Source: a virus
Taxonomy: Duplodnaviria; Caudoviricetes
Strand: one strand, 5' to 3'
DNA: 38,903 nt
IMG/VR virus record: IMGVR_UViG_3300027205_000004
Location: 1-38,903 of that record
The notes under the pieces: generated by a model
What the model was told of the DNA's origin: nothing
Databases searched by the model: none
The model's input: only the letters and a program-made list of their open reading frames with translations
Translations under genes and position numbers: made by a program
In this document: piece after piece, positions 3,136 to 24,507 of the stretch
How the letters are laid out: each line of letters starts with the position of its first letter
How positions within the stretch are numbered: the first letter of the stretch is position 1

Positions 3136-4694
3136 TGGCGATCTTCGGTATCGGTCGCACCGGCGCGTTGCAGAAGCAACTGGCTGAAGCGCAGCAGAAG
3201 AATGGTTACCTGAAGCGTGCGTATGCCGCCGCTCAGAACAACCGCCTCACGTCTGACTGGATCAGTCAAGCCACATCGGCTGACAGCGAGATCCGAGGCA
3301 GCATCAGGATGCTTCGCAATCGCGCCCGTCAACTGGTGCGTGATTCCGACTTTGCCAAGTCTGCGCTGCGAGCCGTTCGCAACAACGTCGTTGGCACCGG
3401 CATCAGGATGCAGGCTCAGGTGCGCATGCAACGTGGTGGGCGCCTTGCTGATGAGATCAATCGCCGCATCGAAGAGGAATTTGACCGCTGGACTTCAGCC
3501 AAGCGTTGTCACGCCGGCGGCAAACTGAGCTGGTATGACATCCAACGCCTCAGCATCACCTCTGTTCTTGAATCCGGTGAAGTCTTCATCCGTCTTGTCA
3601 AGCAACCCTTCGGTGGCAGCAAAGTGCCGCTCGGGCTTGAACTCATCGAGTCGGATCTTCTTGATGATGATTACAGCGGCATCGAAAAGAACGGCAATGA
3701 AGTACGAATGGGCGTGGAGATTGACAAGTGGGGCAGACCGGTTGCCTATCACTTCTTTGATTACCACCCTGGCGATTACCAATTTGCTTACGCCGCAAAG
3801 GCAATGAAGCGCCGCGTGCGCATTCCTGCTGAAGACATCATTCACCTCTACCTCATTGAACGCCCCGGCCAGACGCGTGGTGTTAGCGCGTTTGCTACGG
3901 CGATCATGCGCCTGCGCAATTTGTCTGGCTACGAAGAAGCTGAGATTGTCGCGGCTCGCGCCAGCAGCAGCATGATGGCGTTCGTGAAGACACCGGATCA
4001 GGAGCTGTTTGAAGATGGCACGTTTGATCAGGAGTCTGTCCTCGACTTCTCACCCGGCAGCATCCGCCGATTGGCTCCCGGTGAAGAGATGCAGTTCTTC
4101 ACGCCCAATCGCCCTGATGATGCATTCACTCCTTTTGTGCAGCAAATGCTGCGAGCTGTGGCTGCTGGGATTGGCTGTTCTTACACGCAAGTCAGCTCAG
4201 ATTTCTCTCAGAGCAACTACAGCTCTTCACGACTGGAACTGCTTGAAACAAGAACGCATTACAAAACACTCCAGCAATACTTGATCGAATCGCTGTGCGA
4301 AGAGGTCTACGAGAAATGGATTGAAATGGCAGTGTTGGCCGGCGTTCTGGATCTGCCAAATTACGACAGCAACCCTGAGCGTTACGAAGAAGCCAAGTGG
4401 ATTGCACCCGCTGCTCAGTTCGTTGATCCGCAGAAAGAAGCTGCTGCTTACAAGGAACTAATCCGCTCAGGCATCATGACGCTCTCGCAGGTGATCGCCC
4501 TGCATGGTGGTGACTTTGAAGATCAAATGCGTCAACGCCAGCATGAACTTGCTGTTGCTGATGAGTACGGCATTGTCCTTGATACCGACCCGTCGCAGGT
4601 TTCTAACAACGGTGTTTCTCAACCTGTTCCTGTTGCTTCAACTGAACATCCGATGGAACATGAGGAAGAACCTGAACTTGAGGACATCGACTGA
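3135..4694 (+). CDS. Portal protein, lambda family
   Basis: LRNRARQLVRD, RPGQTRGVS, DFSQSNYSSSR, VDPQKE motifs. Confidence 0.95.
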   Translation: MAIFGIGRTGALQKQLAEAQQKNGYLKRAYAAAQNNRLTSDWISQATSADSEIRGSIRMLRNRARQLVRDSDFAKSALRAVRNNVVGTGIRMQAQVRMQRGGRLADEINRRIEEEFDRWTSAKRCHAGGKLSWYDIQRLSITSVLESGEVFIRLVKQPFGGSKVPLGLELIESDLLDDDYSGIEKNGNEVRMGVEIDKWGRPVAYHFFDYHPGDYQFAYAAKAMKRRVRIPAEDIIHLYLIERPGQTRGVSAFATAIMRLRNLSGYEEAEIVAARASSSMMAFVKTPDQELFEDGTFDQESVLDFSPGSIRRLAPGEEMQFFTPNRPDDAFTPFVQQMLRAVAAGIGCSYTQVSSDFSQSNYSSSRLELLETRTHYKTLQQYLIESLCEEVYEKWIEMAVLAGVLDLPNYDSNPERYEEAKWIAPAAQFVDPQKEAAAYKELIRSGIMTLSQVIALHGGDFEDQMRQRQHELAVADEYGIVLDTDPSQVSNNGVSQPVPVASTEHPMEHEEEPELEDID

Positions 4695-7357
4695 TGGCAA
4701 AGGTTGGTGATAAAACAATCGACCTGATGCCAACAGAAGGCATGAAGGCCGAAGCGCGTCGTTATCGCGCATGGAAGAAAGACGGTCGCCCCGGTGGCAC
4801 TGATGTTGCCGCTACGCGTGCCGGCCAGATCCTTTCCGGCGATGAACTGAGTCCTGAGACTGTCATCACGATGGCCGCATGGTTTGCTCGCCATGAGGTT
4901 GACAAGCAGGGCAAAGGCTTCCGTCCTGGTGGTGAAGACTATCCTTCGCCGGGTCGCGTAGCATGGGCGGCATGGGGCGGTGATTCAGGTCAAACCTGGA
5001 GCAACATGAAATCCAAAGCCATCAAAAAAGCACAGGAGCGTGCCATGGAAATCAACGAAGAGATCGTCGATGGTCGCCCCTATCCAAATGAGCATGCTGC
5101 TCGCCTGACTGATCCTGATCAGTACGACAGCATCCGCCGCGTCAATGATGAATTCGGCGCTGGCATTGATGCTATTTATGGGATCAACGAAGGCACCTCT
5201 GAGTTGCAGGCCATCCGCTTTGATGCTGACCGTTTTACGCCTGCCGAGGCTCGCGAATGGCTGAGCGATCACGACTTTGACCCGATGATGTTTGAAGAAG
5301 CCACCGATGAACGCGAAGAGGAGCGTGCTGCCCCTGACGCCGTCAAGGTTGGTGATTTTGTAGAGTGGGATTCAAGTGGTGGCACCGCACGCGGAAAAGT
5401 TGAACACGTGATGCGTGAAGGTGTACTTGGTGTTCCTGATTCTTCGTTTAGCATTAACGCATCTGAAGAAGATCCCGCTGCGTTGATTCGCGTGTACCGC
5501 AAAGACAGCGAAGGTAGTTACAAAGAGACCGAGACTTTGGTCGGTCATAAGTTCTCTGAACTTCGCAAGATTGCTGCGCTGCGTTTCTTTGAAGGCGAGA
5601 CGCTCAAGCGTTCACTGAGTACTGAATTCCGCTCCGACTCCGAAGATCGCACGCTTGAGTTCCCCTTTGCCAGCGAAGCGCCTGTTGAGCGTTACTACGG
5701 CATGGAAGTGTTGAGCATGGATGCCAAGTCCATGGATCTCACCCGTCTCAATGATGGTGCGCCTCTGTTGTACCAACACGATGCAGACAAGATCGTCGGC
5801 GTTGTACAGAAGGCTTACATCAAAAACAAGCGTGCCTATGCACGCGTAAAACTCGCGAACAACGAACTGGGTCGCGAGATGCAAGAGTTGATCAAGGATG
5901 GAATCATCCGCAATGTCAGCTTCGGCTACAAGATCAACTCCATGGAAGCCGATGAGTCCACATCACCTGTGACTTATCGCGCTACCAGTTTCCAACCGTT
6001 TGAAATAAGCCTGGTCACCGTGCCGGCTGATAATTCGGTTGGAATCGGACGTTCTTTCTCCCATAATGAGAACGTCGATACGGCCTCAGCCGTTCACAGT
6101 CAACCCAACGGAGTTACAACCGTGGATCAAAACCTCAATGTTGAGGCTATCCGCGCTGAGGCCGCTCAGGCCAAGGCTAAGGAAATGGCCGACATGATTG
6201 CTCTTGGTCAACGCACCAAGAACATTGAAATGGCTCAGGAGTTCATTGCTAACTCCCGCAGCCTCGATGAGCTTCGCTCTGCCCTTCTGGAAAAGATGGG
6301 TGTGGAAGAGAAGCCCCTGAACCCCAAGGATGCCGAGATCGGCATGTCGGACAAAGAGAAGCGTGACTTCTCCTTCATCCGCGCCATCAACGCTCTGGCT
6401 CACCCCAACAGCCAAGAAGCTCAGCGTGCTGCTGCTTTCGAAATGGAAGTCAGCCGTGCTGCTCAGCAGAAGTCTGGCAAGGAAGCCCGTGGCATCCTGA
6501 TCCCCGCTGATGTGCTGGGTTATGGCCGCCGTGACCTGACCGTGGGTTCTGCCTCCGGTGGTGGTGATTTGGTTGCCACCGATCTGATGAGCGACAGCTT
6601 CATCGATCTGCTCCGCAAGGCTCTTGTGCTGCAGACCGCTGGCGCGACTGTGATGACCGGCCTCCAAGGCATGGTTGCTCTGCCCCGTCAGTCTGGTGGT
6701 GCCACTGTGTACCACGTTGCTGAGTCCGGCTCGATCACCGAAGGTCAACTGACCGTCGACCAGGTGACGATGCAGCCCCGCACGATTGGTGCGCTGACTG
6801 ATTACTCGCGTCGTCTGCTGCTTCAGTCCAGCATCGACATCGAGAACCTGGTGCGTCGCGATCTGGCTCAACAGATTGCTATCGAAGTTGAGAACCAAGC
6901 CATCAACGGTATTGGCGCTGCTTCGTATCCGCTGGGCTTCCTGAACGTGACCGGTATCAACACCGAGTCCGGTTACACCACGTTCCTGGATTACGTGAAT
7001 GCTGAGGCCGCTCTCAGCACCGACAACGCCCTGCTGGGCAGCCTCGGTTACATGATGAATTCCGCTCTGCGCGGGACTCTGAAGACCACCGAGAAGTCGG
7101 CCACCGGCACCAACGCCAACTTCATCTACGAAGCCGATAACACCATCAATGGTTACCCGGCTTATGTGTCCAACTCCATGCCGAACAACACTGCGGTGTT
7201 CGCTAACTTCAGCGACATCCTGATCGGCTTCTGGAGCGGTCTGGACATCATGGTTGATCCTTACACCGGTTCCGCTTCCGGCACCGTGCGTGTGGTGGCC
7301 ATGCAGGACTATGACGTGGCCATCCGTCACCCTGAGTCCATCTGCAAGCTGTCCTGA
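4694..7357 (+). CDS. Fused accessory domains + HK97-type prohead protease + major capsid protein
   Basis: Protease motifs LLYQHD, NVSFGY, EISLVTVPAD; HK97-fold capsid in the C-terminal ~410 aa. Confidence 0.92.
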   Translation: MAKVGDKTIDLMPTEGMKAEARRYRAWKKDGRPGGTDVAATRAGQILSGDELSPETVITMAAWFARHEVDKQGKGFRPGGEDYPSPGRVAWAAWGGDSGQTWSNMKSKAIKKAQERAMEINEEIVDGRPYPNEHAARLTDPDQYDSIRRVNDEFGAGIDAIYGINEGTSELQAIRFDADRFTPAEAREWLSDHDFDPMMFEEATDEREEERAAPDAVKVGDFVEWDSSGGTARGKVEHVMREGVLGVPDSSFSINASEEDPAALIRVYRKDSEGSYKETETLVGHKFSELRKIAALRFFEGETLKRSLSTEFRSDSEDRTLEFPFASEAPVERYYGMEVLSMDAKSMDLTRLNDGAPLLYQHDADKIVGVVQKAYIKNKRAYARVKLANNELGREMQELIKDGIIRNVSFGYKINSMEADESTSPVTYRATSFQPFEISLVTVPADNSVGIGRSFSHNENVDTASAVHSQPNGVTTVDQNLNVEAIRAEAAQAKAKEMADMIALGQRTKNIEMAQEFIANSRSLDELRSALLEKMGVEEKPLNPKDAEIGMSDKEKRDFSFIRAINALAHPNSQEAQRAAAFEMEVSRAAQQKSGKEARGILIPADVLGYGRRDLTVGSASGGGDLVATDLMSDSFIDLLRKALVLQTAGATVMTGLQGMVALPRQSGGATVYHVAESGSITEGQLTVDQVTMQPRTIGALTDYSRRLLLQSSIDIENLVRRDLAQQIAIEVENQAINGIGAASYPLGFLNVTGINTESGYTTFLDYVNAEAALSTDNALLGSLGYMMNSALRGTLKTTEKSATGTNANFIYEADNTINGYPAYVSNSMPNNTAVFANFSDILIGFWSGLDIMVDPYTGSASGTVRVVAMQDYDVAIRHPESICKLS

Positions 7358-15609: not shown

Positions 15610-16273
15610 GGTCTACGGCGCACTCCGCAAAAAGCTGGGTCAGTGCCGCTTCCAATTTGAAGCCGACACGCCAGCGCAGGCGCTCAAGGCACTTTGCGTC
15701 AATTTTCCCGGTCTTGAAAAGTGGCTGATTGATAGCGAACAGGACGGTGTTGGCTATCGTGTAACAATCGGAAAAGAAAAGGTCACCGAACAAAACGCCG
15801 TGTTGATTGCGGCTCCATTTAGTGAGCGGGAAGTTTTTAGTATTACGCCTGTAATTGCTGGTGCTGGCGATGGCGCGGGACAGATTTTGGCGGGTGTTGG
15901 CCTGATCGCCTTGGCCATTGTTACCGGAGGCATTGCATCTGCTGGTGTGGCCTTGGGAGGTTTTATGGGAATCGGAACAATCGGAACGGCTGTTGTTGGT
16001 ATAGGCGCCAGCCTTGTCCTTGGCGGCATTGCACAAGCTCTTTCGCCTGCACCGGTTAATTCGACTTCAACTTTTGAGCGCGGACGTGAGGCGGCAAAGC
16101 TGGAATCATTTAGCTTTAGCGGCATTGTGAACACGTCCAAACAGGGATTGCCCGTACCGATTGCCTACGGTCGATTGTTTGTGGGTTCCGCTGTAATTTC
16201 TAGCGGCCTTGATGTGGAGTTCAGCGGCAATGCTGGTAAATCCACTGGCGAAGTATTTGCGAGCAAGGGTTGA
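15596..16273 (+). CDS. Tail assembly protein, lambda gpI-like
   Basis: Ubiquitin-like N-terminus, Gly-rich hydrophobic segment, NT..QG.PVP..YG. Confidence 0.9.
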   Translation: MKVVKVYGALRKKLGQCRFQFEADTPAQALKALCVNFPGLEKWLIDSEQDGVGYRVTIGKEKVTEQNAVLIAAPFSEREVFSITPVIAGAGDGAGQILAGVGLIALAIVTGGIASAGVALGGFMGIGTIGTAVVGIGASLVLGGIAQALSPAPVNSTSTFERGREAAKLESFSFSGIVNTSKQGLPVPIAYGRLFVGSAVISSGLDVEFSGNAGKSTGEVFASKG

Positions 16274-19200
16274 TGACAAAAAGAACAGCTCTACTCCAAG
16301 GTTCTGGTGGCGGCGGCGGTGGAGGCTGCTTCCTTGGCCATACGCTCGTCGCGGTTCCAAACGGCCAACGCCGAATTGATGAACTGCAATCGGGCGATCT
16401 GGTTCTGAGCTTTGACCATACCGGCGAAGTCCACGAAGCCAAAATCCTCAAAGTCCACGAACACGAAGGCGAGCGCGTTATCCGCTACACGCTCTGGGGC
16501 GGACAGCATCTTGATGCCACCCCTAACCACTGGGTTCTAAACCAGTTCAACGCCTTCGTCGAAATTGACACGTTTGGCGCTGATGATTGCCTTGTTGACG
16601 CCAACGGCCACCTCCGTCCCGTCGTCGGCAAGACCGAATTCTGCACTGGCACGGTCTACAACCTGACCGTCGAAGGCCACCACACCTTCATCGCCGGCGG
16701 AATCCGCGTCCACAATGCCGGTCTTGGCCTTGGTATTGCTGGTGCTGGTGGCGGTGGTGGCGGTGGCGGCAAGGGCGGTGGTGGCGGCAGAAGGACGCCT
16801 TATGAGGCAGATGATTCGCTGCAGTCCACCCAATATGCAAGTGTTCTAGATCTTATTTGCGAAGGTGAAATCCAAGGTCTAGATAACGGCGCCAAAAGTA
16901 TCTATTTAGATGATACCCCGATTGAAGATGCGGCAGGAAATAAAAACTTTCGCGGCTATCAAGTTGTTACCAGAAATGGCACGCAAAATCAAACTATTAT
17001 CGGTGCTGATCTAAATGCAACAGAATCTGAAAATGGCGTCAGCGTCCAGCTTTTTGCATCCACACCTGTAACTCGTCAAATCACGAATACAGCAGTAGAT
17101 CGAGTCCGCGTGACGGTTAACGTTCCAGCACTGCAAATTTTGCAAGACGATGGCGACATTGTTGGCCACAGCGTATCGCTAAAAATTGAAACCCAATACA
17201 ATTCCGGCGGTTACACAGAAGTCATTAGCGACACAATTAGCGGTAAAACAGGCAATTTATATCAGCGCGATTACATGCTGGCGCTGAATGGCGCATTTCC
17301 AGTTGACATCCGAGTTACAAGAACAAGTGGCGATGAAAGCTCCGCTAAGCGCCAAAATGACATCTACTGGTCTAGCTACACAGAAATTATTGACGAAAAG
17401 TTGCGTTATCCAAACAGCGCCCTTGTTGGCCTGCGGTTTGATTCGCGCAACTTCAATAATATCCCCAAGCGTAAATATCTAATCCGTGGAGCAAAAATAC
17501 AGTTGCCCAGCAACGCAACCGTTGATACCACTACACACCTAGGGCGCGTAACCTACGCCGGCGTCTGGGACGGCACTTTTGGCGCTGCGACTTGGTGCAA
17601 CGACCCCGCCTGGTGCCTGTGGGATTTATTGATCAGCACTCGTTACGGCGCCGGAATACCAGCCAGTAACTTAGATCGTTATGACTTTTATGCGATTAGT
17701 CAGTATTGCAACGAGTTGGTCGAAAACGGCAAAGGTGGCTTGGAGCCTCGCTTCTCATGCAACCTGCTGATTAACAGCCGCGACGAGGTTTACAACGTCA
17801 TCCAAGAAATGACCAGCCTGTTCCGTGGCATCGCCTATTACGGCGCCGGTTCGCTGGTACTGCAGCAGGACAAGCCAACTGATTCGCAATATCTGCTGGG
17901 ACCAAGCAACGTTGTTGATGGCGTTTTTAATTACAGCGGATCATCTCAAAAGGCTAGACACAGCGTCGCCACTGTTGCCTGGCAGTCCTACGACACCTTG
18001 GGCGAAGTTGAATACGAATACGTTGAAGATGCGGAAGCTGTAGCCAAATACGGCATCATTAATAAAGACATCAAGGCGCTGGGTTGTTACAGCCAAGGCC
18101 AAGCACATCGGGCTGGTAAATGGGCGCTACTGAGCGAACAGAATCTGACCGAAACTATCACCTTTTCGGTCTCAATCGACAGCGGCATCATCCTGCGCCC
18201 CGGCATGGTGATCGACATTGCCGATCCGCTTAAAGCCGGATCACGCCGCAGCGGTCGCGTTAGTTCTGCCACCACAACCGCCATCACTGTTGACAGCAGC
18301 ACCAATCTCACCGTCAACCTGTCGAACAGCCCGACAATTTCGGTGTTGATGCCAACCGGCTTGGTGGAAACCAAAACCATCAGCAGCATTTCTGGCACAA
18401 CCATCAACGTCAGCAGCGCGTTCAGCGAAGCACCCAACGCTAACGCTATCTGGCTAATCCAAACCAGCGACATCGAAGCCCAGCAATACCGCGTGTTGAA
18501 TGTCGCAGAATCCGAAGATGGTATTTACGGCGTAACTGCGCTGCAGTACAACAGCACGATTTACGACGCGATTGAAAGCAATAACAAATTACTGCGCCGA
18601 GACATTAGTAACCTGTCTGCCAAGCCCGATACAGTTGGCAACATTTCTGGATCGGAATACATTTATCAAGATGGGCAAAATGTATTTTCCGGTTTTGATT
18701 TAAGTTGGATCAGCCCTAGACAACGTGTTAGCGAATTTCGGGTTGACTATCGAATTGATAATGATAACTGGAAGCAGGTTGTCAGCACCTCTCCTTCGGT
18801 GCAAATTAAACAAACACGCCCCGGCATTTTATATATTCAAATAACGGCGGCAAACTACCTCAATAAAATTAGCGACATTGCATCAGCCCAATTCACGCTT
18901 GTTGGTAAAACTGCTGTTCCCGGCAATGTTCAAAATCTGACGTTTGAAGCCATCAACAACAACTCCGGTCGCCTGCGCTGGGACGAAACCGTTGATCTTG
19001 ACGTAAAAGTTGGCGGCAAAATTCATATTCGCCACAGCAGCTTGACCGACGGCACGGCTACTTGGAGCAACAGCGTTGACCTAATCCCCGCCAAATCCGG
19101 CAGCTCAACAGAGGCAATCATTCCGCTTGTAGAAGGCGAAGTGCTGGTGAAATTTGAAGATGACGGTGGGCGGCAATCAGCCAGCGAAACCAGCGTCATT

Positions 19201-20037
19201 ATCGACCTGCCCGACACTATCGCGCCGCTAACAATTCAAACCCGCCGCGAAGATCAGGACGTTCCGTCTTTCCAAGGCACAAAGTCAGACACCTTCTACA
19301 GCGAAGAGTTCGACGCGCTCACGCTGGATGGCACGACCTTAATTGATTCGGTTGTTGATTTTGACCTGATCCCAACGCTGGATGTACTTGGACCCGTGGC
19401 TAGCTCTGGCACTTACACATTCGCCAGCACATTGGATCTGGGCAACACCTTTTCTGTGGATCTTCGCCGGTATTTCGTCACCCGTGGTTATTACCCATCC
19501 GACCTGATCGACTCCCGCGCCAACACCGTGGATGATTGGTCCGACTGGGACGGCGCCATTACAGACAAGGTGAACGCCAAGCTGATGTTGCGCTCCACCA
19601 ATGATAATCCCAGCGCCACACCAACTTGGACCGCATGGCAGGAATTCGTCAACGGCGCCTTCCGTGGTCGCGGCTTCCAATTCCGCGCCGATCTCAGCAG
19701 CAGCGCCATCGACCAAAACATCTTGGTGGACGAACTGGGCTACGACGCCACCTTCCAGCGCCGCACGGAAAACAGCGATGGAGCGGTCAGCAGCGGAGCC
19801 GGCGCCAAGGCGATCACGTTTACCAACGCCTTCTGGACTGGAACAACAAGCCTCGGTGGGGTTAACGCCTACCTTCCCAGCATCGGCATCACCGCTCAAA
19901 ACATGGCAACCGGCGATTTCTTTGAAGTCACCAGCGTCAGCGGCACTGGCTTCACGGTCACCTTCAAAAACTCGGCTGGAACTGCAGTTAGTCGTAATTT
20001 CAACTGGAGTGCGGTTGGCTATGGCCGAGGCGGCTAA
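16273..20037 (+). CDS. Tail tip / host specificity protein, lambda gpJ-like, with N-terminal Hint domain
   Basis: DLICEGEI.GL, YPNSAL, W..DPAW.LWD, LRPG motifs; ATG overlaps gpI stop. Confidence 0.93.
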   Translation: MTKRTALLQGSGGGGGGGCFLGHTLVAVPNGQRRIDELQSGDLVLSFDHTGEVHEAKILKVHEHEGERVIRYTLWGGQHLDATPNHWVLNQFNAFVEIDTFGADDCLVDANGHLRPVVGKTEFCTGTVYNLTVEGHHTFIAGGIRVHNAGLGLGIAGAGGGGGGGGKGGGGGRRTPYEADDSLQSTQYASVLDLICEGEIQGLDNGAKSIYLDDTPIEDAAGNKNFRGYQVVTRNGTQNQTIIGADLNATESENGVSVQLFASTPVTRQITNTAVDRVRVTVNVPALQILQDDGDIVGHSVSLKIETQYNSGGYTEVISDTISGKTGNLYQRDYMLALNGAFPVDIRVTRTSGDESSAKRQNDIYWSSYTEIIDEKLRYPNSALVGLRFDSRNFNNIPKRKYLIRGAKIQLPSNATVDTTTHLGRVTYAGVWDGTFGAATWCNDPAWCLWDLLISTRYGAGIPASNLDRYDFYAISQYCNELVENGKGGLEPRFSCNLLINSRDEVYNVIQEMTSLFRGIAYYGAGSLVLQQDKPTDSQYLLGPSNVVDGVFNYSGSSQKARHSVATVAWQSYDTLGEVEYEYVEDAEAVAKYGIINKDIKALGCYSQGQAHRAGKWALLSEQNLTETITFSVSIDSGIILRPGMVIDIADPLKAGSRRSGRVSSATTTAITVDSSTNLTVNLSNSPTISVLMPTGLVETKTISSISGTTINVSSAFSEAPNANAIWLIQTSDIEAQQYRVLNVAESEDGIYGVTALQYNSTIYDAIESNNKLLRRDISNLSAKPDTVGNISGSEYIYQDGQNVFSGFDLSWISPRQRVSEFRVDYRIDNDNWKQVVSTSPSVQIKQTRPGILYIQITAANYLNKISDIASAQFTLVGKTAVPGNVQNLTFEAINNNSGRLRWDETVDLDVKVGGKIHIRHSSLTDGTATWSNSVDLIPAKSGSSTEAIIPLVEGEVLVKFEDDGGRQSASETSVIIDLPDTIAPLTIQTRREDQDVPSFQGTKSDTFYSEEFDALTLDGTTLIDSVVDFDLIPTLDVLGPVASSGTYTFASTLDLGNTFSVDLRRYFVTRGYYPSDLIDSRANTVDDWSDWDGAITDKVNAKLMLRSTNDNPSATPTWTAWQEFVNGAFRGRGFQFRADLSSSAIDQNILVDELGYDATFQRRTENSDGAVSSGAGAKAITFTNAFWTGTTSLGGVNAYLPSIGITAQNMATGDFFEVTSVSGTGFTVTFKNSAGTAVSRNFNWSAVGYGRGG
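16327..16716 (+). other. 130-aa Hint (intein-like) domain inside gpJ
   Basis: Block A CFLGHTLV, block B ATPNH, block F/G VYNLTVEGHHTF...VHN; next residue is Ala. Confidence 0.9.
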
Positions 20038-20071
20038 AGTTGGACAAATACTGTCCTTATAAGGACTCGGC

Positions 20072-21877
20072 ATGGCTCAACACGATTATGTGATTGCTAA
20101 CGGCACCGGCGCCGCCGTCCGTTCCGATCTCAACAACGGCCTTTCCGCAATCGTCACCCAGAACAGCGGAGCGACCGAGCCGGCAACCACTTACGCCTTC
20201 ATGCGCTGGGCGGATACGACCGCTGGCGTGATGAAAATGCGGAACAGCGCCAACAACGCTTGGATCACGCTGTACCAGTTGGATGGCGAGTGGACCAACA
20301 TTGCCTTTGAAAACGGCACCGCTGCTGCCCCGTCGATCTACTTCAAGGACAGTGGCACCGACACAGGCTTCTATTCGCCCGGCGCCAACCAAGTCGGAAT
20401 TTCAACGGGCGGCACGGCTCGCCTGACCATCGACTCCAACGGCAACGTCGATATTGACAGCAACACGCTCTACGTTGATGCCACCAATAACAGGGTAGGT
20501 CTGGGGGTTAGTGACCCTGGGCAAAAGTTAGTTATTGGTGGCGGCACAAATGGACGTACCCGAATCAAAGTTGATTCAGGTTCTGGTAACTTTGGCAAGT
20601 TCGAGTTTTCGACTGATTCAGCTTTAACTACAAGTGCCGTTCAGGTAGCGGAGATTACGGCCAACATTACCGGGACAGGTCCGCTTACTTCAAGCCTGCA
20701 GTTTGCGACCAATAGCGGCAACTCGCTTAATACCGCAATGACGATAGATTCGTCACAGCGAGTAGGGATTGGCACTACTAGTCCTGCAAGACAGCTTGAT
20801 GTTAATAGTACTGCGATTTTTGACAGCAATGGCAACGGGTCCACTACTAGCCCGTCTATTGCGATTGGTTCTACAGGTACAGGTCTTTCTTACATTGGGA
20901 GTCAACAACTTGCTTTCCTTACAAACTCTGCCGAACGCGCCCGCATCGACAGCTCGGGACGCCTGTTAGTTGGCACGTCTACTGGTCGTAATGGTGGATA
21001 TGCGGATCCCGCTCAAGTACAAATTGAAGGGTTGAGTTACAATAGTGCCGCTCAAAGTATCATTATTGATTCCAATGATGGAAATGGTCCAAGTCTAAAT
21101 TTTGGCAAATCTCGTGGTACAAGTTTAAACTCCAATACCGTTGTTCAAAGCGGCGACAGGCTTGGTGTAATTGACTTTGCCGGAGCAGACGGAACTTCTC
21201 TAAAAAGAGGGGCAGTAATTGAAGCCTATGTAGACGGCACCCCCGGCGCCAGCGACATGCCTGGCCGCCTAGTGTTCTCCACTACCGCCGATGGAGCGAG
21301 CAGCCCGACGGAACGGATGAGGATAAATAACGGTGGTGGCGTGATGATAGGAACAACAAACGCCCAGACAGGAATCGGTGATCTAACGACAGTTACAGGT
21401 GTAGCTTTTAGCCCTGACGGCTGGGTTGGAGGATGCAGATCAAGCGAAGCCGCTGGCTATTTCACGCGAACAGGTACGGATGGCAGGGTAATCAACTTTT
21501 ACAAAGGAAGCACAGGTGTTGGCGGCATTTCTGTCACAACAACCGCAACCGCTTTTAATACTTCATCGGATTATCGCTTAAAAGAAAACATTATCAGCAT
21601 CTCAAATGCAATCGAAAGAGTTAAACAGCTAAATCCCTGCCGTTTTAATTTTATTGCTAACCCCGAGCAAACTGTCGATGGCTTTATTGCTCACGAAGCA
21701 CAGCAGGTCGTGCCTGAGGCAGTTGAAGGCACCAAAGATGAAGTCGATGAAAACGGCAAACCTATTTACCAAGGCATCGACCAGTCCAAACTGGTGCCGT
21801 TGCTGACCGCTGCGCTGCAGGAAGCGTTGGCTGAGATTGAGTCCCTGAAGGCTCGTGTTACCGCGCTAGAGCCATAA
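20072..21877 (+). CDS. Modular tail fibre with C-terminal intramolecular chaperone (peptidase S74)
   Basis: Repeated RVGIGT / ERARIDSSG / ERMRI linkers; TSSDYRLKENI, GFIAHE, IDQSKLVPLL. Confidence 0.92.
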   Translation: MAQHDYVIANGTGAAVRSDLNNGLSAIVTQNSGATEPATTYAFMRWADTTAGVMKMRNSANNAWITLYQLDGEWTNIAFENGTAAAPSIYFKDSGTDTGFYSPGANQVGISTGGTARLTIDSNGNVDIDSNTLYVDATNNRVGLGVSDPGQKLVIGGGTNGRTRIKVDSGSGNFGKFEFSTDSALTTSAVQVAEITANITGTGPLTSSLQFATNSGNSLNTAMTIDSSQRVGIGTTSPARQLDVNSTAIFDSNGNGSTTSPSIAIGSTGTGLSYIGSQQLAFLTNSAERARIDSSGRLLVGTSTGRNGGYADPAQVQIEGLSYNSAAQSIIIDSNDGNGPSLNFGKSRGTSLNSNTVVQSGDRLGVIDFAGADGTSLKRGAVIEAYVDGTPGASDMPGRLVFSTTADGASSPTERMRINNGGGVMIGTTNAQTGIGDLTTVTGVAFSPDGWVGGCRSSEAAGYFTRTGTDGRVINFYKGSTGVGGISVTTTATAFNTSSDYRLKENIISISNAIERVKQLNPCRFNFIANPEQTVDGFIAHEAQQVVPEAVEGTKDEVDENGKPIYQGIDQSKLVPLLTAALQEALAEIESLKARVTALEP

Positions 21878-21892
21878 GTCCTACTCGTTACT

Positions 21893-22036
21893 GTGCCTGA
21901 CGAAATCACACCGGAGGAAAACGAGCGGCGCTTCAGAGAATGTCTTCGCCTGATCAACAACGTCACCTACGAGCGACTGGTGGAGTTGATGGGCGAGGAG
22001 TTCCTTGAAGAGTATCGCCGTGTTGCTCGGCATTAA
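21893..22036 (+). CDS. 47-aa cassette protein (VPDEITPEENERRFRECL...), not in ORF track
   Basis: GTG starts 3 nt after the 21876 site; manual translation. Confidence 0.6.
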   Translation: MPDEITPEENERRFRECLRLINNVTYERLVELMGEEFLEEYRRVARH

Positions 22037-22113
22037 AAAGGGGCAGGATGTCACCCCTGCCCCTGTGCAACGGAATATCACAACCGTTGCGGTGCCTTGT
22101 CAGCCGAAGCACT
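22035..22113 (-). ncRNA. Putative three-hairpin small RNA ending in an intrinsic terminator
   Basis: -10-like TACCAT (22121-22126, minus strand); three adjacent stems; last stem followed by TTTTT. Confidence 0.5.
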
Positions 22114-22124
22114 GTAGCACATGG

Positions 22125-22193
22125 TATGGTGGTGGAGCGGCGCAGTGCTACCTGCCCGCCCCATGACCGCCGATTGGAGGATCGACGATGACC
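22125..22193 (+). promoter_or_regulatory. Promoter + two-hairpin structured leader, copy 1
   Basis: Aligns without gaps to 23236-23304, with compensatory stem changes. Confidence 0.7.
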
Positions 22194-22574
22194 CAAGATT
22201 ACAAGCACCCGATCACCTCACCGCTGGAATTAAGCGACGAGCAAGTGGGCGAATGGCTGATCGACGACGGCTACCCGTGGGACCCCTCGGAGCAAGCTGT
22301 CATCACCATTACCACCAACCGACTCAAGAATGTTGCCCGCCAAGCATTCCAAGCTGGTGCCGACCAAGAGCTGGAGGCGTGCCTCAGGCTGGTTGAAATC
22401 AATGCTGGTGAGGACGCTTATGACTTTGCTCGCTACATCCGCTCCGCCCGCCGCCCCAAGCCGCCAAGCTTGAAGGAGCAGGCGCTGGAAGCGCATAATC
22501 GGATGATGGCCGGAGAAGAAACGCAAGATGATTGGTCGATTGTCCGCCGCGCACTGGAGCAACTCGATGACTGA
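22188..22574 (+). CDS. Hypothetical phage protein
   Basis: GGAGG upstream; GADQELEAC and RRPKPPSLKEQAL motifs recalled from cyanophage small proteins. Confidence 0.75.
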   Translation: MTQDYKHPITSPLELSDEQVGEWLIDDGYPWDPSEQAVITITTNRLKNVARQAFQAGADQELEACLRLVEINAGEDAYDFARYIRSARRPKPPSLKEQALEAHNRMMAGEETQDDWSIVRRALEQLDD

Positions 22575-23031
22575 CTTCCGAGCGCTGTGCGCTGAGCTGC
22601 TGGCCGCACTGGAGAACGAAGGCTACGCCCACTGGTCTACCGCTCCAGACGAAGATGAGCTATGCCTACGCGCCCGCGCCGCCTTGGCCCAGCCCGAGCC
22701 GAAAGAGCCGACGGACGAGGAACTGCAAAAACTAGCTGGCATGTTCTTTACTTCCACTGAGTTCGGCTTTGTGGACTTTGCTCGCGCTGTCCTAGTCATT
22801 CCCGCTACTATGTCTGAACTTTCACCCCAAGCGCAAGCTGTCTGGGACGCCTACGGCACTTTGGCCGATCTTTATAACTGCGAAGTCACAGAGGCTGAAA
22901 TGCTTGCCGCCGCTCTTCGTACTGTGGCAGAACAATTTTATTTTGATTGGAACGGTATGTGCTGCGCTGAACACCTCAAAGAAATTGCCAGAGAACTCGA
23001 CGCCAGTGAGCCTGTAACCGAAGCCCAGTAG
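22567..23031 (+). CDS. Chimeric hypothetical protein (MTDFRALCAEL.. fused in frame to MSELSPQAQAV.. at 22810)
   Basis: Reads through the 22793 site; second ATG lies 3 nt after the site. Confidence 0.65.
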   Translation: MTDFRALCAELLAALENEGYAHWSTAPDEDELCLRARAALAQPEPKEPTDEELQKLAGMFFTSTEFGFVDFARAVLVIPATMSELSPQAQAVWDAYGTLADLYNCEVTEAEMLAAALRTVAEQFYFDWNGMCCAEHLKEIARELDASEPVTEAQ

Positions 23032-23046
23032 TCACCTTCCCTACCC

Positions 23047-23205
23047 ATGACGCGCTCCTTCTCGGAACTCACCAAAGATTTTGCCCCAGAGCGCCGGGAG
23101 CGCATTGAACAGCGCAAGGCGGAGATCCAAGAAGATCTTGTTGAATGTCCAGAGTGTTTCGCCTTGATTTACCCGAGCTGGCTTGAGATGGACGAGGACG
23201 AGTAG
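23047..23205 (+). CDS. 52-aa cassette protein (MTRSFSELTKDFAPERRERIEQRK...CPEC), not in ORF track
   Basis: Bounded exactly by the 23029 and 23203 sites; manual translation. Confidence 0.65.
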   Translation: MTRSFSELTKDFAPERRERIEQRKAEIQEDLVECPECFALIYPSWLEMDEDE

Positions 23206-23235
23206 TCATCCTCTGATCGAGGTCTGGCTCTGGTA

Positions 23236-23304
23236 TAAGATTGTGAGGTAGCGCAGCGCCAACTGCCTACCCCATGACCGCTCCACTGCTCTGGAACGAT
23301 GACC
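23236..23304 (+). promoter_or_regulatory. Promoter + two-hairpin structured leader, copy 2 (recombinase leader)
   Basis: -10-like TAAGAT; stems GGTAG/CTACC, GCAG/CTGC, TCCA/TGGA. Confidence 0.7.
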
Positions 23305-24159
23305 ACATCCTATTCGGTGTCCCAGCTTTGGGATGCCTTTGTCGCTGAGCGATCCATCTCGCTTTGCCCCACCAGCCTCACCTCCGACTACAGGCAGGTG
23401 ACCAAGTGGTTAAAGCGATGCCCGATCCAAGATCTGCAACAAGCACGCCAGGTGATGATCTGGGTGCTGGGGCAGAAACCTGTGCTGTCTTCACGTCGCG
23501 TCGCGATGTACACGAAAACGATGTATAAGTGGGCAGCGCAGGAAGACGTTGGTTACCTGAACCGCAATCCGCTTGCGAGCTTCAAGATGCCAAAGGCGCC
23601 TCAACGCGATGAAGAAATCATCGTGATTCCGCGCAATGAAATCGGCTTGGTGCTGGCCGCTTTGGAGGCAAAACTGACCTATCGCACGGTCAACTGGTCG
23701 GCCTACACCGAGTTCATGCTTCAGACCGCGATGCGCACCGGCGAGGTTCGTGCTGCTCGCTGGGATGATATCAAGGACGGGAAGATCCTTGTTCATCAGA
23801 ACTGGACTTTGACCCATGGATTGAAGGACAGCACCAAGACGAACAAAAAACGGTGGGTGCCGTTGAACGGCAAGTGCCAAGCGATCCTTGGGTCTCTACC
23901 GAAGGATTCCGAATTTATCTTCCCGTGGGATCGACTTGCGTTTCAGAGTTACTTCCGCAAGAAGCTTCAGCCGCTACATCAGGTTGGACTGATCTCTCAC
24001 CTTTACCGACCTTACGACTGCAGGCACACCGCAATCAGCCATTGGATTGAGGCTGGCATCCCAGTACCTCAGGTGGCGGCTTGGGCAGGCAACACCAGCG
24101 AGGTGATCTTCAAACATTATTGCAATACCACAAAGGAGTACGAAATGCCGGAGATTTGA
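23299..24159 (+). CDS. Tyrosine recombinase (286 aa, no arm-binding domain)
   Basis: MRTGE (R), TKT (K), YDCRHT (HxxR variant), AGNT, KHY (catalytic Y). Confidence 0.92.
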   Translation: MTTSYSVSQLWDAFVAERSISLCPTSLTSDYRQVTKWLKRCPIQDLQQARQVMIWVLGQKPVLSSRRVAMYTKTMYKWAAQEDVGYLNRNPLASFKMPKAPQRDEEIIVIPRNEIGLVLAALEAKLTYRTVNWSAYTEFMLQTAMRTGEVRAARWDDIKDGKILVHQNWTLTHGLKDSTKTNKKRWVPLNGKCQAILGSLPKDSEFIFPWDRLAFQSYFRKKLQPLHQVGLISHLYRPYDCRHTAISHWIEAGIPVPQVAAWAGNTSEVIFKHYCNTTKEYEMPEI

Positions 24160-24186: not shown

Positions 24187-24507
24187 ATGCCCAGCGCTAC
24201 CCCTAGCACCACCTTCACCTGGCGGATCGCCAACCTCGAAAGAGAGACCGCCGATGGATTCGTTCTGACGGCACACTGGACGCTCTCGGCTGAAGATGGC
24301 ACCTACGCCAGCTCGGCCTATGGGTCCGTCGGCTTTGAGCGCCCCGACAAACTCATTCCGTACAACCAGTTAACGGAAGAACAGGTGGTGCAATGGGTGA
24401 AGGACAACTTCGGCGCTGAGAAGGTGACCGAGATCGAAGGCGCCCTGCAGCATCAACTTGATGAACAGCGGCATCCGACGCAGGCTGCAGGTGTGCCGTG
24501 GCAGTAA
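24187..24507 (+). CDS. Tail fibre-associated small protein
   Basis: TW.I..LER...DG.V..AHW, IPY..LTEE.V..WV, GVPW; family usually found directly after fibre genes. Confidence 0.7.
   Translation: MPSATPSTTFTWRIANLERETADGFVLTAHWTLSAEDGTYASSAYGSVGFERPDKLIPYNQLTEEQVVQWVKDNFGAEKVTEIEGALQHQLDEQRHPTQAAGVPWQ

What the first reader, a model, noticed from the sequence alone, without database searches (positions are those of the whole stretch)
21875..23217. Integron-like cassette array between fibre and recombinase
Seen: AAGT-CCTACTC-GTTA (21876), TAGT-CATTCCC-GCTA (22793), TAGT-CACCTTC-CCTA (23029) and TAGT-CATCCTC-tgat (23203) have similar pyrimidine-rich spacers. The left arm overlaps or supplies the stop codon of the preceding gene (fibre TAA, TAG 23029, TAG 23203). 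A start codon follows 3-4 nt after the right arm (GTG 21893, ATG 22810, ATG 23047). The array plus recombinase separates the fibre from the gene family that normally abuts it (24187). Inference: small genes are captured as site-bounded cassettes, as in an integron, but with short symmetric core sites and no attC hairpins.
Basis: partly seen in the sequence, partly recalled or inferred. Interest (0 to 1): 0.85.

Follow-up and report, generated by a model that had tools for sequence, protein, structure and literature searches.

The report
Address-coded swap sites in cyanophage fibres
The tail-fibre gene of this cyanobacterial virus and the small genes behind it are cut into interchangeable modules by a fixed, ordered series of 15-base palindromic sites, each with its own 7-base core; the neighbouring recombinase likely swaps modules between viruses at matching cores, which would give unrelated viruses a shared plug-and-socket system for host-recognition parts.

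Summary
The sites are real, but this is not an integron. They belong to an ordered series of TAG(T)-N7-ACTA sites; four more lie inside the fibre gene, written into its codons. Each 7-nt core is a fixed class. Post-fibre cores are not repeated within an array (0 of 238) and order is kept (585 vs 2). Shared DNA starts or stops at the sites, and 77 of 85 shared modules keep both addresses. The same addresses occur in T7-like and siphoviral Synechococcus phages. Same-class post-fibre sites share only 10-13 bp, below Red-beta/RecA minima. A sister recombinase clade beside an unrelated fibre family has the same arms with new cores, which ties enzyme family to site type. Likely mechanism: cointegrate-and-resolve exchange between co-infecting genomes, as proposed for pdif modules. 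Against: most site-bearing phages lack the enzyme (9 of 47 carry it), so action in trans is inferred; some breakpoints are off-site; no product or activity was seen. The scan met this motif before on other genomes: seven notes rejected the recombinase, one (e1-10206068) read it as here.

The parts
20072..21877 (+). Tail fibre gene (601 aa, C-terminal Peptidase_S74 chaperone), built of exchangeable modules
20496..20510 (+). Intragenic site f0, TAGG-TCTGGGG-GTTA (codons of VGLGVS)
   Evidence: identity to 11 related loci ends at 20506, the last core base; 104 of 108 pairs one-sided
20763..20777 (+). Intragenic site f2, TAGG-GATTGGC-ACTA (VGIGTT)
   Evidence: (18 of 21 pairs one-sided)
20967..20981 (+). 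Intragenic site f2b, TAGT-TGGCACG-TCTA (LVGTS), at the end of a ~50-nt conserved block
   Evidence: contig pieces start at 20966
21270..21284 (+). Intragenic site f3, TAGT-GTTCTCC-ACTA (LVFSTT), at the start of a ~55-nt conserved block
   Evidence: weak as a breakpoint (1 of 10 pairs)
21876..21890 (+). Site A, AAGT-CCTACTC-GTTA, at the fibre stop
   Evidence: left-flank identity ends at 21886, right-flank identity starts at 21877; 134 of 150 pairs one-sided
21893..22036 (+). 47-aa ORF, first gene of the A-B module
   Evidence: 98% identical protein in L018 behind another left flank
22039..22120 (.). Two hairpins, the first terminator-like on the - strand
   Evidence: (z -3.9)
22125..22187 (+). 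Promoter/leader-like element, 74% alike to 23236-23281; also a non-site breakpoint (22142)
   Evidence: (D2)
22188..22574 (+). 128-aa accessory gene (phrog_32006, unknown function)
22567..23031 (+). 154-aa ORF that reads through site B in the same frame as the intragenic sites
22793..22807 (+). Site B, TAGT-CATTCCC-GCTA
   Evidence: L024 shares exactly 22793-23039 at 98.8%; so does a contig of run X7
22810..23031 (+). 73-aa gene of the B-C module
   Evidence: 100% identical protein in L024, whose recombinase is 85% identical
23029..23043 (+). Site C, TAGT-CACCTTC-CCTA
   Evidence: 172 of 179 pairs one-sided
23047..23205 (+). 52-aa ORF behind site C
   Evidence: first 102 nt 99% identical in L018
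23203..23217 (+). Decayed C-like site, TAGT-CATCCTC-TGAT
   Evidence: same position as class C in L005/L006; right arm lost
23236..23298 (+). Second copy of the promoter/leader-like element, in front of the recombinase
   Evidence: D2
23299..24159 (+). Tyrosine recombinase, 286 aa, without N-terminal extension; R146, K180, Y239, R242, N265, Y274 invariant
24187..24507 (+). DUF7936 gene closing the locus

Best explanation
The fibre locus carries an ordered series of dyad sites (arms TAG[T/G/C] and ACT[A/T] around a 7-nt core that differs from site to site) at which modules have been exchanged between phage genomes, and the adjacent arm-less tyrosine recombinase likely catalyses these exchanges, likely also in trans for phages that lack it. 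Shown: the sites, their order, their place at breakpoints, their DNA-level constraint inside codons, and their co-occurrence with the recombinase family. Inferred: recombinase monomers bind the two arms; strand exchange needs matching cores, so sites within one genome (different cores) are mostly inert and the array does not delete itself; two genomes in one cell join at one matching core and resolve at a second, which swaps the module between them even if the rest of the genomes is unrelated. Rare mismatched events would explain empty arrays, re-addressed modules and tandem fibre series.
For: Architecture: 0 repeated cores among 238 post-fibre sites (shuffled mean 33, minimum 20) and order 585 vs 2; 0 of 91 and 324 vs 1 in metagenome loci. 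Breakpoints: one flank >=88% alike and the other <=62% in A 134/150, B 18/19, C 172/179, f0 104/108, f2 18/21 pairs, against 40/1168 and 108/1012 control anchors (pairs are not independent). Identity to the window stops at the last core base (20506, 21886, 23039) or starts in the left arm, also in contigs of four other runs. 77 of 85 shared modules keep both addresses (shuffled mean 7.9). Dyad: with the right arm not used for calling, it reads A.58 C.76 T.78 A.66 over 9 non-coding classes and A.86 C.97 T.97 A.74 over 9 coding classes. Codon constraint: both TA arms in 114 of 168 xGxGx motifs vs 0 of 23 in T4-like and other control phages. Little homology: median perfect match of 10-13 bp for A, B, C, D, E, H against 23-27 bp for Red-beta and 31-34 bp for RecA (PMC3945230). 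Cross-family: same cores in the same order in S-CBP4, 7B11-B, S-RIP1, S-CBP42, S-LBS1, S-H1. Enzyme link: a site within 1.5 kb upstream in 66 of 67 viral and 44 of 51 metagenome loci, in T7-like, tail-collar and lambda-like backbones. Out-of-sample: the sister clade (60-68% identity, inverted, beside unrelated phrog_19943/24898 fibres) shows the same arms with a new set of cores, 72 sites in 112 kb vs 14 in 246 kb, 1 repeat in 97 sites, order 111 vs 4, 13 of 14 vs 0 of 10 controls at the FAPVxGYS motif. Catalytic residues are invariant.
Against: Most site-bearing phages lack the enzyme: 9 of 47 carry it within 6 kb, and 0 of 22 records without it at the locus have PF00589 anywhere (0 of 10 at least 90% complete). 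Arms are no better kept with the enzyme than without (right CT 0.75 vs 0.86). A strict BLAST-end test found no excess at intragenic sites (28 of 860 vs 34.7 expected), and f3 and f1 are weak breakpoints (1 of 10, 4 of 12). f2b and f3 sit in 50-55 nt conserved blocks long enough for homologous recombination. Many breakpoints inside the A-B module are off-site (22142, 22438-22492, 22548, 22577). Intragenic classes are repeated in some long fibres (35 of 423 sites; order 807 vs 62). 8 of 85 shared modules changed address. 16 of 66 family loci have no site within 1.5 kb by the core-blind scan, among them L506/L514 beside a DNA polymerase and a serine integrase (chance rate 0.25). Fixed order is also expected from common descent. 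No cointegrate, circle or activity was observed.
Confidence: 0.68

Rival explanations
1. The sites are conserved linker or boundary sequences used by homologous recombination (the window encodes a weakly Sak-like annealase and an exonuclease); the recombinase is a passenger.
For: Sites persist in phages without the enzyme; 50-55 nt conserved blocks at f2b and f3; off-site breakpoints at shared leaders and gene junctions; precedents in E. coli phage receptor-binding genes (PMC10408124) and PeSLs (PMC2839356); Sak-like hit E 0.009.
Against: Shared blocks of 10-13 bp at six post-fibre classes are below published minima. Homology gives no reason for one dyad at one spacing across 18 coding and non-coding classes, nor for its return in an unrelated fibre motif beside the sister enzyme.
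Confidence: 0.13
2. The sites are true recombinase sites with address-coded exchange, but a host or other phage recombinase reads them, and this gene is not the main catalyst.
For: Only about one site-bearing phage in five carries the gene; site quality does not depend on it; in the pdif precedent a host enzyme does the work.
Against: The family sits at the site arrays in both main clades, often 18 nt from a site (15 of 66). No cyanobacterial chromosomal copy among 5 genome-contig hits (that search finds close relatives only).
Confidence: 0.11
3. Integron-like capture: cassettes excise as circles and insert at one attI-like site, so number and order vary.
For: Cassette number varies; all cores of the first post-fibre set begin and end with C; 7 of 26 shared post-fibre modules changed one or both addresses, and A/C hybrid junctions exist.
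Against: No repeated cores, fixed order, both addresses mostly kept; sites continue into the fibre ORF; no integron-integrase family hit; no hairpin.
Confidence: 0.04
4. An ordinary lysogeny integrase (as proposed for S-LBS1 A12), with the dyads being operators or translation signals.
For: Pfam Phage_integrase; published reading of the 80% identical S-LBS1 protein; post-fibre sites overlap stops and precede starts.
Against: No N-terminal extension, unlike its 350-410 aa relatives; no prophage found; the S-LBS1 authors found no sign of integration; present in T7-like backbones; intragenic sites have no start or stop; sites are breakpoints.
Confidence: 0.04

Closest known systems
pdif (xrs) modules of Acinetobacter plasmids, XerC/D (PMC11705084, passages read)
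   Same: Several sites with common arms and differing central regions; recombination between molecules only where central regions match; exchange proposed by cointegration then resolution.
   Different: There: host XerC/D heterodimer, FtsK control, 6-bp centre, sites often inverted, plasmids, intergenic sites. Here: phage genomes, co-oriented sites in a fixed order, 7-nt cores, sites inside a coding sequence, one phage-encoded enzyme carried by a minority.
Integrons (IntI, attI, attC; features recalled)
   Same: Tyrosine recombinase beside small site-bounded genes of varying number.
   Different: No attC hairpins, no IntI family hit, no reordering or stacking; each site has its own core.
Shufflons (Rci of R64; PMC8138268 passage; mechanism recalled)
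   Same: An arm-less enzyme derived from arm-bearing integrases that reshuffles parts of a surface-recognition protein at sites within its reading frame.
   Different: Shufflons invert segments inside one molecule at sites with a common core; here sites are direct, heterospecific, and no silent alternative modules are stored.
Conserved recombination motifs around phage receptor-binding domains (PMC10408124, passages) and PeSLs of T4-type phages (PMC2839356, abstract)
   Same: Short conserved DNA at module borders, shared across genera, driving mosaicism.
   Different: Those are 20-95 nt homology blocks or promoter/terminator repeats; here 15-nt dyads with position-specific cores and 10-13 bp of identity.
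Integrase A12 of Synechococcus phage S-LBS1 (PMC6157547, passages)
   Same: 80% identical, directly behind the tail fibre; S-LBS1 has sites f0c, f2, f3, D, H.
   Different: Read there as a lysogeny integrase with other proposed att sites; the passages seen do not mention the dyad sites.
Recombinase-mediated cassette exchange with heterospecific lox/FRT sites (engineered; recalled)
   Same: Mutually incompatible cores define slots; two crossovers swap the enclosed cassette.
   Different: This would be a natural version with at least 18 addresses in the first series and a second series.

Membership tests
Integron | Integron integrase (IntI) | tested here: not met
   NCBIfam gives only weak XerD-like hits below cut-off; Pfam gives generic PF00589
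Integron | attC sites folding into hairpins | tested here: not met
   39-41 nt windows on A, B, C fold no better than shuffles (z 0.8-1.3, RNA parameters); no attC model was run
Integron | Cassettes stack and change order | tested here: not met
Integron | Excised circular cassettes | tested here: inconclusive
   no site-to-site joint in contigs of 8 runs; contigs drop rare forms
pdif/Xer module system | XerC and XerD binding arms around a 6-bp centre | tested here: not met
   arms are TAG(T)/ACTA around 7 nt, not ATAA/TTAT
pdif/Xer module system | Several sites per replicon with differing centres; exchange between replicons at matching centres | tested here: met
   architecture and breakpoints; the reaction itself was not tested
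Shufflon | Inverted sites flanking stored alternative segments | tested here: not met
   421 sites on the gene strand vs 8 on the other; only the distant relative L383 lies between inverted fibre genes
Tyrosine recombinase (simple, no arm-binding domain) | Catalytic R-K-H-R-H/W-Y positions | tested here: met
   R146, K180, Y239, R242, N265, Y274 invariant in 16 close and 11 distant sequences; Y for H-II and N for H/W-III are shared with the longer relatives
Tyrosine recombinase (simple, no arm-binding domain) | Core-binding plus catalytic domain only | tested here: met
   283-294 aa clade; most nearest relatives have a further 75-110 N-terminal residues; the AlphaFold model was too poor to use (pLDDT 54.6)
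Tyrosine recombinase (simple, no arm-binding domain) | Binding and cleavage at these sites | not testable with these tools
   needs an assay
Lysogeny integrase with attP | Prophage in a host chromosome ending at the site | tested here: inconclusive
   5 hits in genome contigs: three close ones on 2-20 kb contigs of non-cyanobacterial MAGs, two weak fragments
Homology-linker mosaicism (boundary sequences, PeSL) | Shared block long enough for annealase or RecA pairing | tested here: not met
   median 10-13 bp for A, B, C, D, E, H; 16-18 bp for f0, f2, f2b, f3, with longer tails at f2b and f3, where it may be met

The most novel reading that the evidence does not exclude
Picocyanobacterial phages of unrelated families share a natural, address-coded cloning standard: a dedicated arm-less recombinase, carried by a minority as a common good, swaps fibre domains and accessory genes between co-infecting genomes at more than 30 mutually incompatible 7-nt addresses, some hidden in the codons of two unrelated fibre families.
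Probability: 0.55. Interest if true: 0.92.

Novelty: new variant of a known kind. Interest (0 to 1): 0.8.

Why it matters
Phage mosaicism is usually put down to homologous or illegitimate recombination. If the reading holds, fibre modules are exchanged by a dedicated enzyme at pre-set positions, in frame, across phage families. That makes the origin of fibre mosaicism directly testable with two plasmids and one gene. It re-reads the 'lysogeny integrase' of S-LBS1, and it offers a small recombinase with a natural library of orthogonal sites.

Tried and rejected
Strict BLAST-end test inside fibres: no excess at sites; the flank test did show it for f0 and f2; both are reported. First look at distant recombinases (upstream, + strand, known cores) was negative, 6 of 53; it missed that the sister clade is inverted and uses other cores. 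RNA-hairpin reading of the sites: no folding. tRNA attachment site: no tRNA in the window. AlphaFold model: pLDDT 54.6, not used, no fold search run. PDB sequence search: 0 hits with the single protein; 11 distant hits with the profile, mostly integrases and Xer proteins. Plasmid search: only distant enterobacterial integrases at about 30%. P0125 and P0126 gave no viral loci; P0123 gave one. The tree is a quick tree with long outgroup branches, used only to see clades; 90 of 252 locus proteins were kept after de-duplication. Read laying used contigs of 8 of 20 listed runs and showed no circle or site-to-site deletion, which proves nothing. NtcA operator (GTA-N8-TAC, recalled): spacing does not fit. 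Literature searches with no description of this system in listings: 0 papers; 0; the library holds open papers only, and no supplements were read (those of the S-LBS1 paper may bear on the att sites).
Full report
Setting. The window is a complete 38.9-kb virus record with lambda-like head and tail genes. Its closest cultured link is Synechococcus phage S-LBS1, whose integrase is 80% identical and also follows the fibre. The region holds a tail fibre (20072-21877), four small ORFs, a 286-aa tyrosine recombinase (23299-24159) and DUF7936.

Observation. Three are exact members of recurrent classes, named here A (CCTACTC), B (CATTCCC) and C (CACCTTC); the fourth is a decayed C. At B the upstream ORF reads through in frame. 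Four more sites lie inside the fibre ORF: 20496, 20763, 20967, 21270.

Architecture in relatives. All 80 loci fetched with the recombinase have DUF7936 behind it, and the stretch in front varies. Of 202 fibre-to-DUF7936 regions, 136 were distinct; they hold 421 sites in 343 kb on the gene strand, 8 on the other strand and 21 in 886 kb outside (classes came from the same data). None of 238 post-fibre sites repeats a core within its array (shuffled mean 33, minimum 20 of 2000), and pairs of classes keep their order 585 times against 2. Metagenome loci repeat this: 0 of 91, and 324 against 1. A set found by the f3 motif alone is less clean: 35 of 423 sites are repeats, nearly all from tandem series in long fibres, and order is 807 against 62. 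Among 962 modules from 297 arrays, 85 clusters are shared between arrays; 77 keep both addresses (shuffled mean 7.9, maximum 17), 43 have a different neighbour on at least one side, and 8 changed address. Common descent adds to these counts.

Breakpoints. Ends of near-identical blocks fall at sites in 464 of 2350 cases (136.5 expected), but inside the fibre this test shows nothing (28 of 860, 34.7 expected). A flank test is sharper: given one flank at least 88% alike, the other is at most 62% alike in A 134/150, B 18/19, C 172/179, D 12/14, f0 104/108 and f2 18/21 pairs, but in only f1 4/12 and f3 1/10; control anchors give 108/1012 in the fibre and 40/1168 behind it. For the window itself, identity stops at the last core base (20506, 21886, 23039) or starts in the left arm (21877, 22793, 23027); L024 shares exactly the B-C module at 98.8% with an 85% identical recombinase. 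Contigs of four other runs show pieces 20496-20779, 19800-20506, 22793-23039 and starts at 21877. Off-site breakpoints also exist inside the A-B module, so homologous recombination works here too.

Site or linker? Earlier notes of this scan mostly read the motif as homology linkers, because phages without the enzyme keep it. I confirmed that fact and tested the reading. First, the dyad holds across contexts: with the right arm left out of calling, it still reads ACTA over nine non-coding and nine coding classes. Second, anchored on protein motifs, both TA arms stand in 114 of 168 xGxGx motifs, against 0 of 23 in control phages with equal or higher GTA use; in all 6 regions with several VGIGT motifs each copy has its own core. 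Third, same-class sites with unrelated flanks share a median of 10-13 bp (A, B, C, D, E, H) or 16-18 bp (f0, f2, f2b, f3); published minima are 23-27 bp for Red-beta and 31-34 bp for RecA (PMC3945230, passages). f2b and f3 have longer conserved blocks and may serve both routes. Fourth, the same cores stand in the same order in T7-like S-CBP4, 7B11-B, S-RIP1 and S-CBP42 and in siphoviruses S-LBS1 and S-H1, but not as a series in the T4-like S-B05 gene.

The enzyme. It has invariant R146, K180, Y239, R242, N265 and Y274 and forms a small 283-294 aa clade among relatives mostly of 350-410 aa. Loss of the arm-binding domain has a precedent in the shufflon enzyme Rci, and most phage integrases keep that domain (PMC8138268, passages). 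A site lies within 1.5 kb upstream in 66 of 67 viral and 44 of 51 metagenome loci. A passenger of the module would show this too, so I looked at distant members. The first look was negative (6 of 53). The sister clade proved to be inverted, between an unrelated fibre family (phrog_19943/24898) and the endolysin. A core-blind scan trained on the first series found the same arms there with new cores (CGGGTAC, GAACAAG, CACGAAG, CTGAACC and others): 72 sites in 112 kb against 14 in 246 kb on the far side, often within 45 nt of the enzyme's stop, with 1 repeat in 97 sites and order 111 against 4. One new site is again written into codons, in 13 of 14 FAPVxGYS motifs against 0 of 10 control phages, whose proteins differ somewhat at the motif. 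Over the family, 50 of 66 loci with enough flank have a core-blind site within 1.5 kb (chance 0.25); 16 do not.

Mechanism. Established for tyrosine recombinases (recalled; described for Xer): two monomers bind arms around a 6-8 bp overlap, and strand exchange favours matching overlaps. Inferred here: different cores keep an array from deleting itself; matching cores on two genomes in one cell give a cointegrate that resolves at a second core and swaps the enclosed module, in frame when the sites are intragenic. About one site-bearing phage in five carries the gene (9 of 47; 0 of 22 others), so action in trans is required, and it is untested. Confidence 0.68; homology linkers 0.13; another enzyme reading the sites 0.11; integron-like 0.04; lysogeny integrase 0.04.

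Comparison. It works most like pdif module exchange in Acinetobacter (PMC11705084, passages), but it fails Xer membership. It fails the integron tests. The S-LBS1 paper reads the enzyme as a lysogeny integrase and found no sign of integration (PMC6157547, passages). Six searches listed no description of this system. I noted the address reading, before seeing that note e1-10206068 had reached it on another genome; that note is not independent support.

Verdict. Observation confirmed, integron reading only partly supported, new variant of site-specific module exchange, interest 0.8.

Noticed in passing
L383:57-1376 and 3266-5055: A distant relative of the recombinase (45% identical) lies between two inverted sets of tail-fibre and fibre-assembly genes with repeated junction motifs, like a shufflon.
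   Followed up: partly
window 22125-22170 and 23236-23281: Two 74% alike promoter/leader-like elements with a hairpin; relatives share the element and also break there.
   Followed up: partly
L004, L029 (behind site A); L043, L045, L072, L075, L242 (behind site D): Recurrent 100-150 nt modules without an obvious ORF that look like small structured RNAs; not folded or searched in Rfam.
   Followed up: no
L253, L257, L271, L289, L317: Long fibres with tandem repeats of the f0-f2-f2b-f3 site series.
   Followed up: partly
L517, L472, L469, L495, L489 and 7B11-B (L241:7140): A possible third set of cores (GTCCCCG, GGCAGTG, CAACGAC) with the same arms.
   Followed up: partly
window 16270-20037: The tip attachment protein J ORF begins with a Hint (intein-like) domain.
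   Followed up: no
L506, L514: Family members (54-55%) beside a DNA polymerase, a serine integrase and a sigma factor, with no site array.
   Followed up: partly
L245 (S-CBP1), L382 (S-CBP2): These podoviruses have the fibre motifs without the site spelling; S-CBP1 keeps site A at the fibre stop.
   Followed up: partly
L009, L017, L070, L193: Empty or hybrid arrays: A core joined to the right flank of C; A and C adjacent; C directly at the fibre stop.
   Followed up: partly
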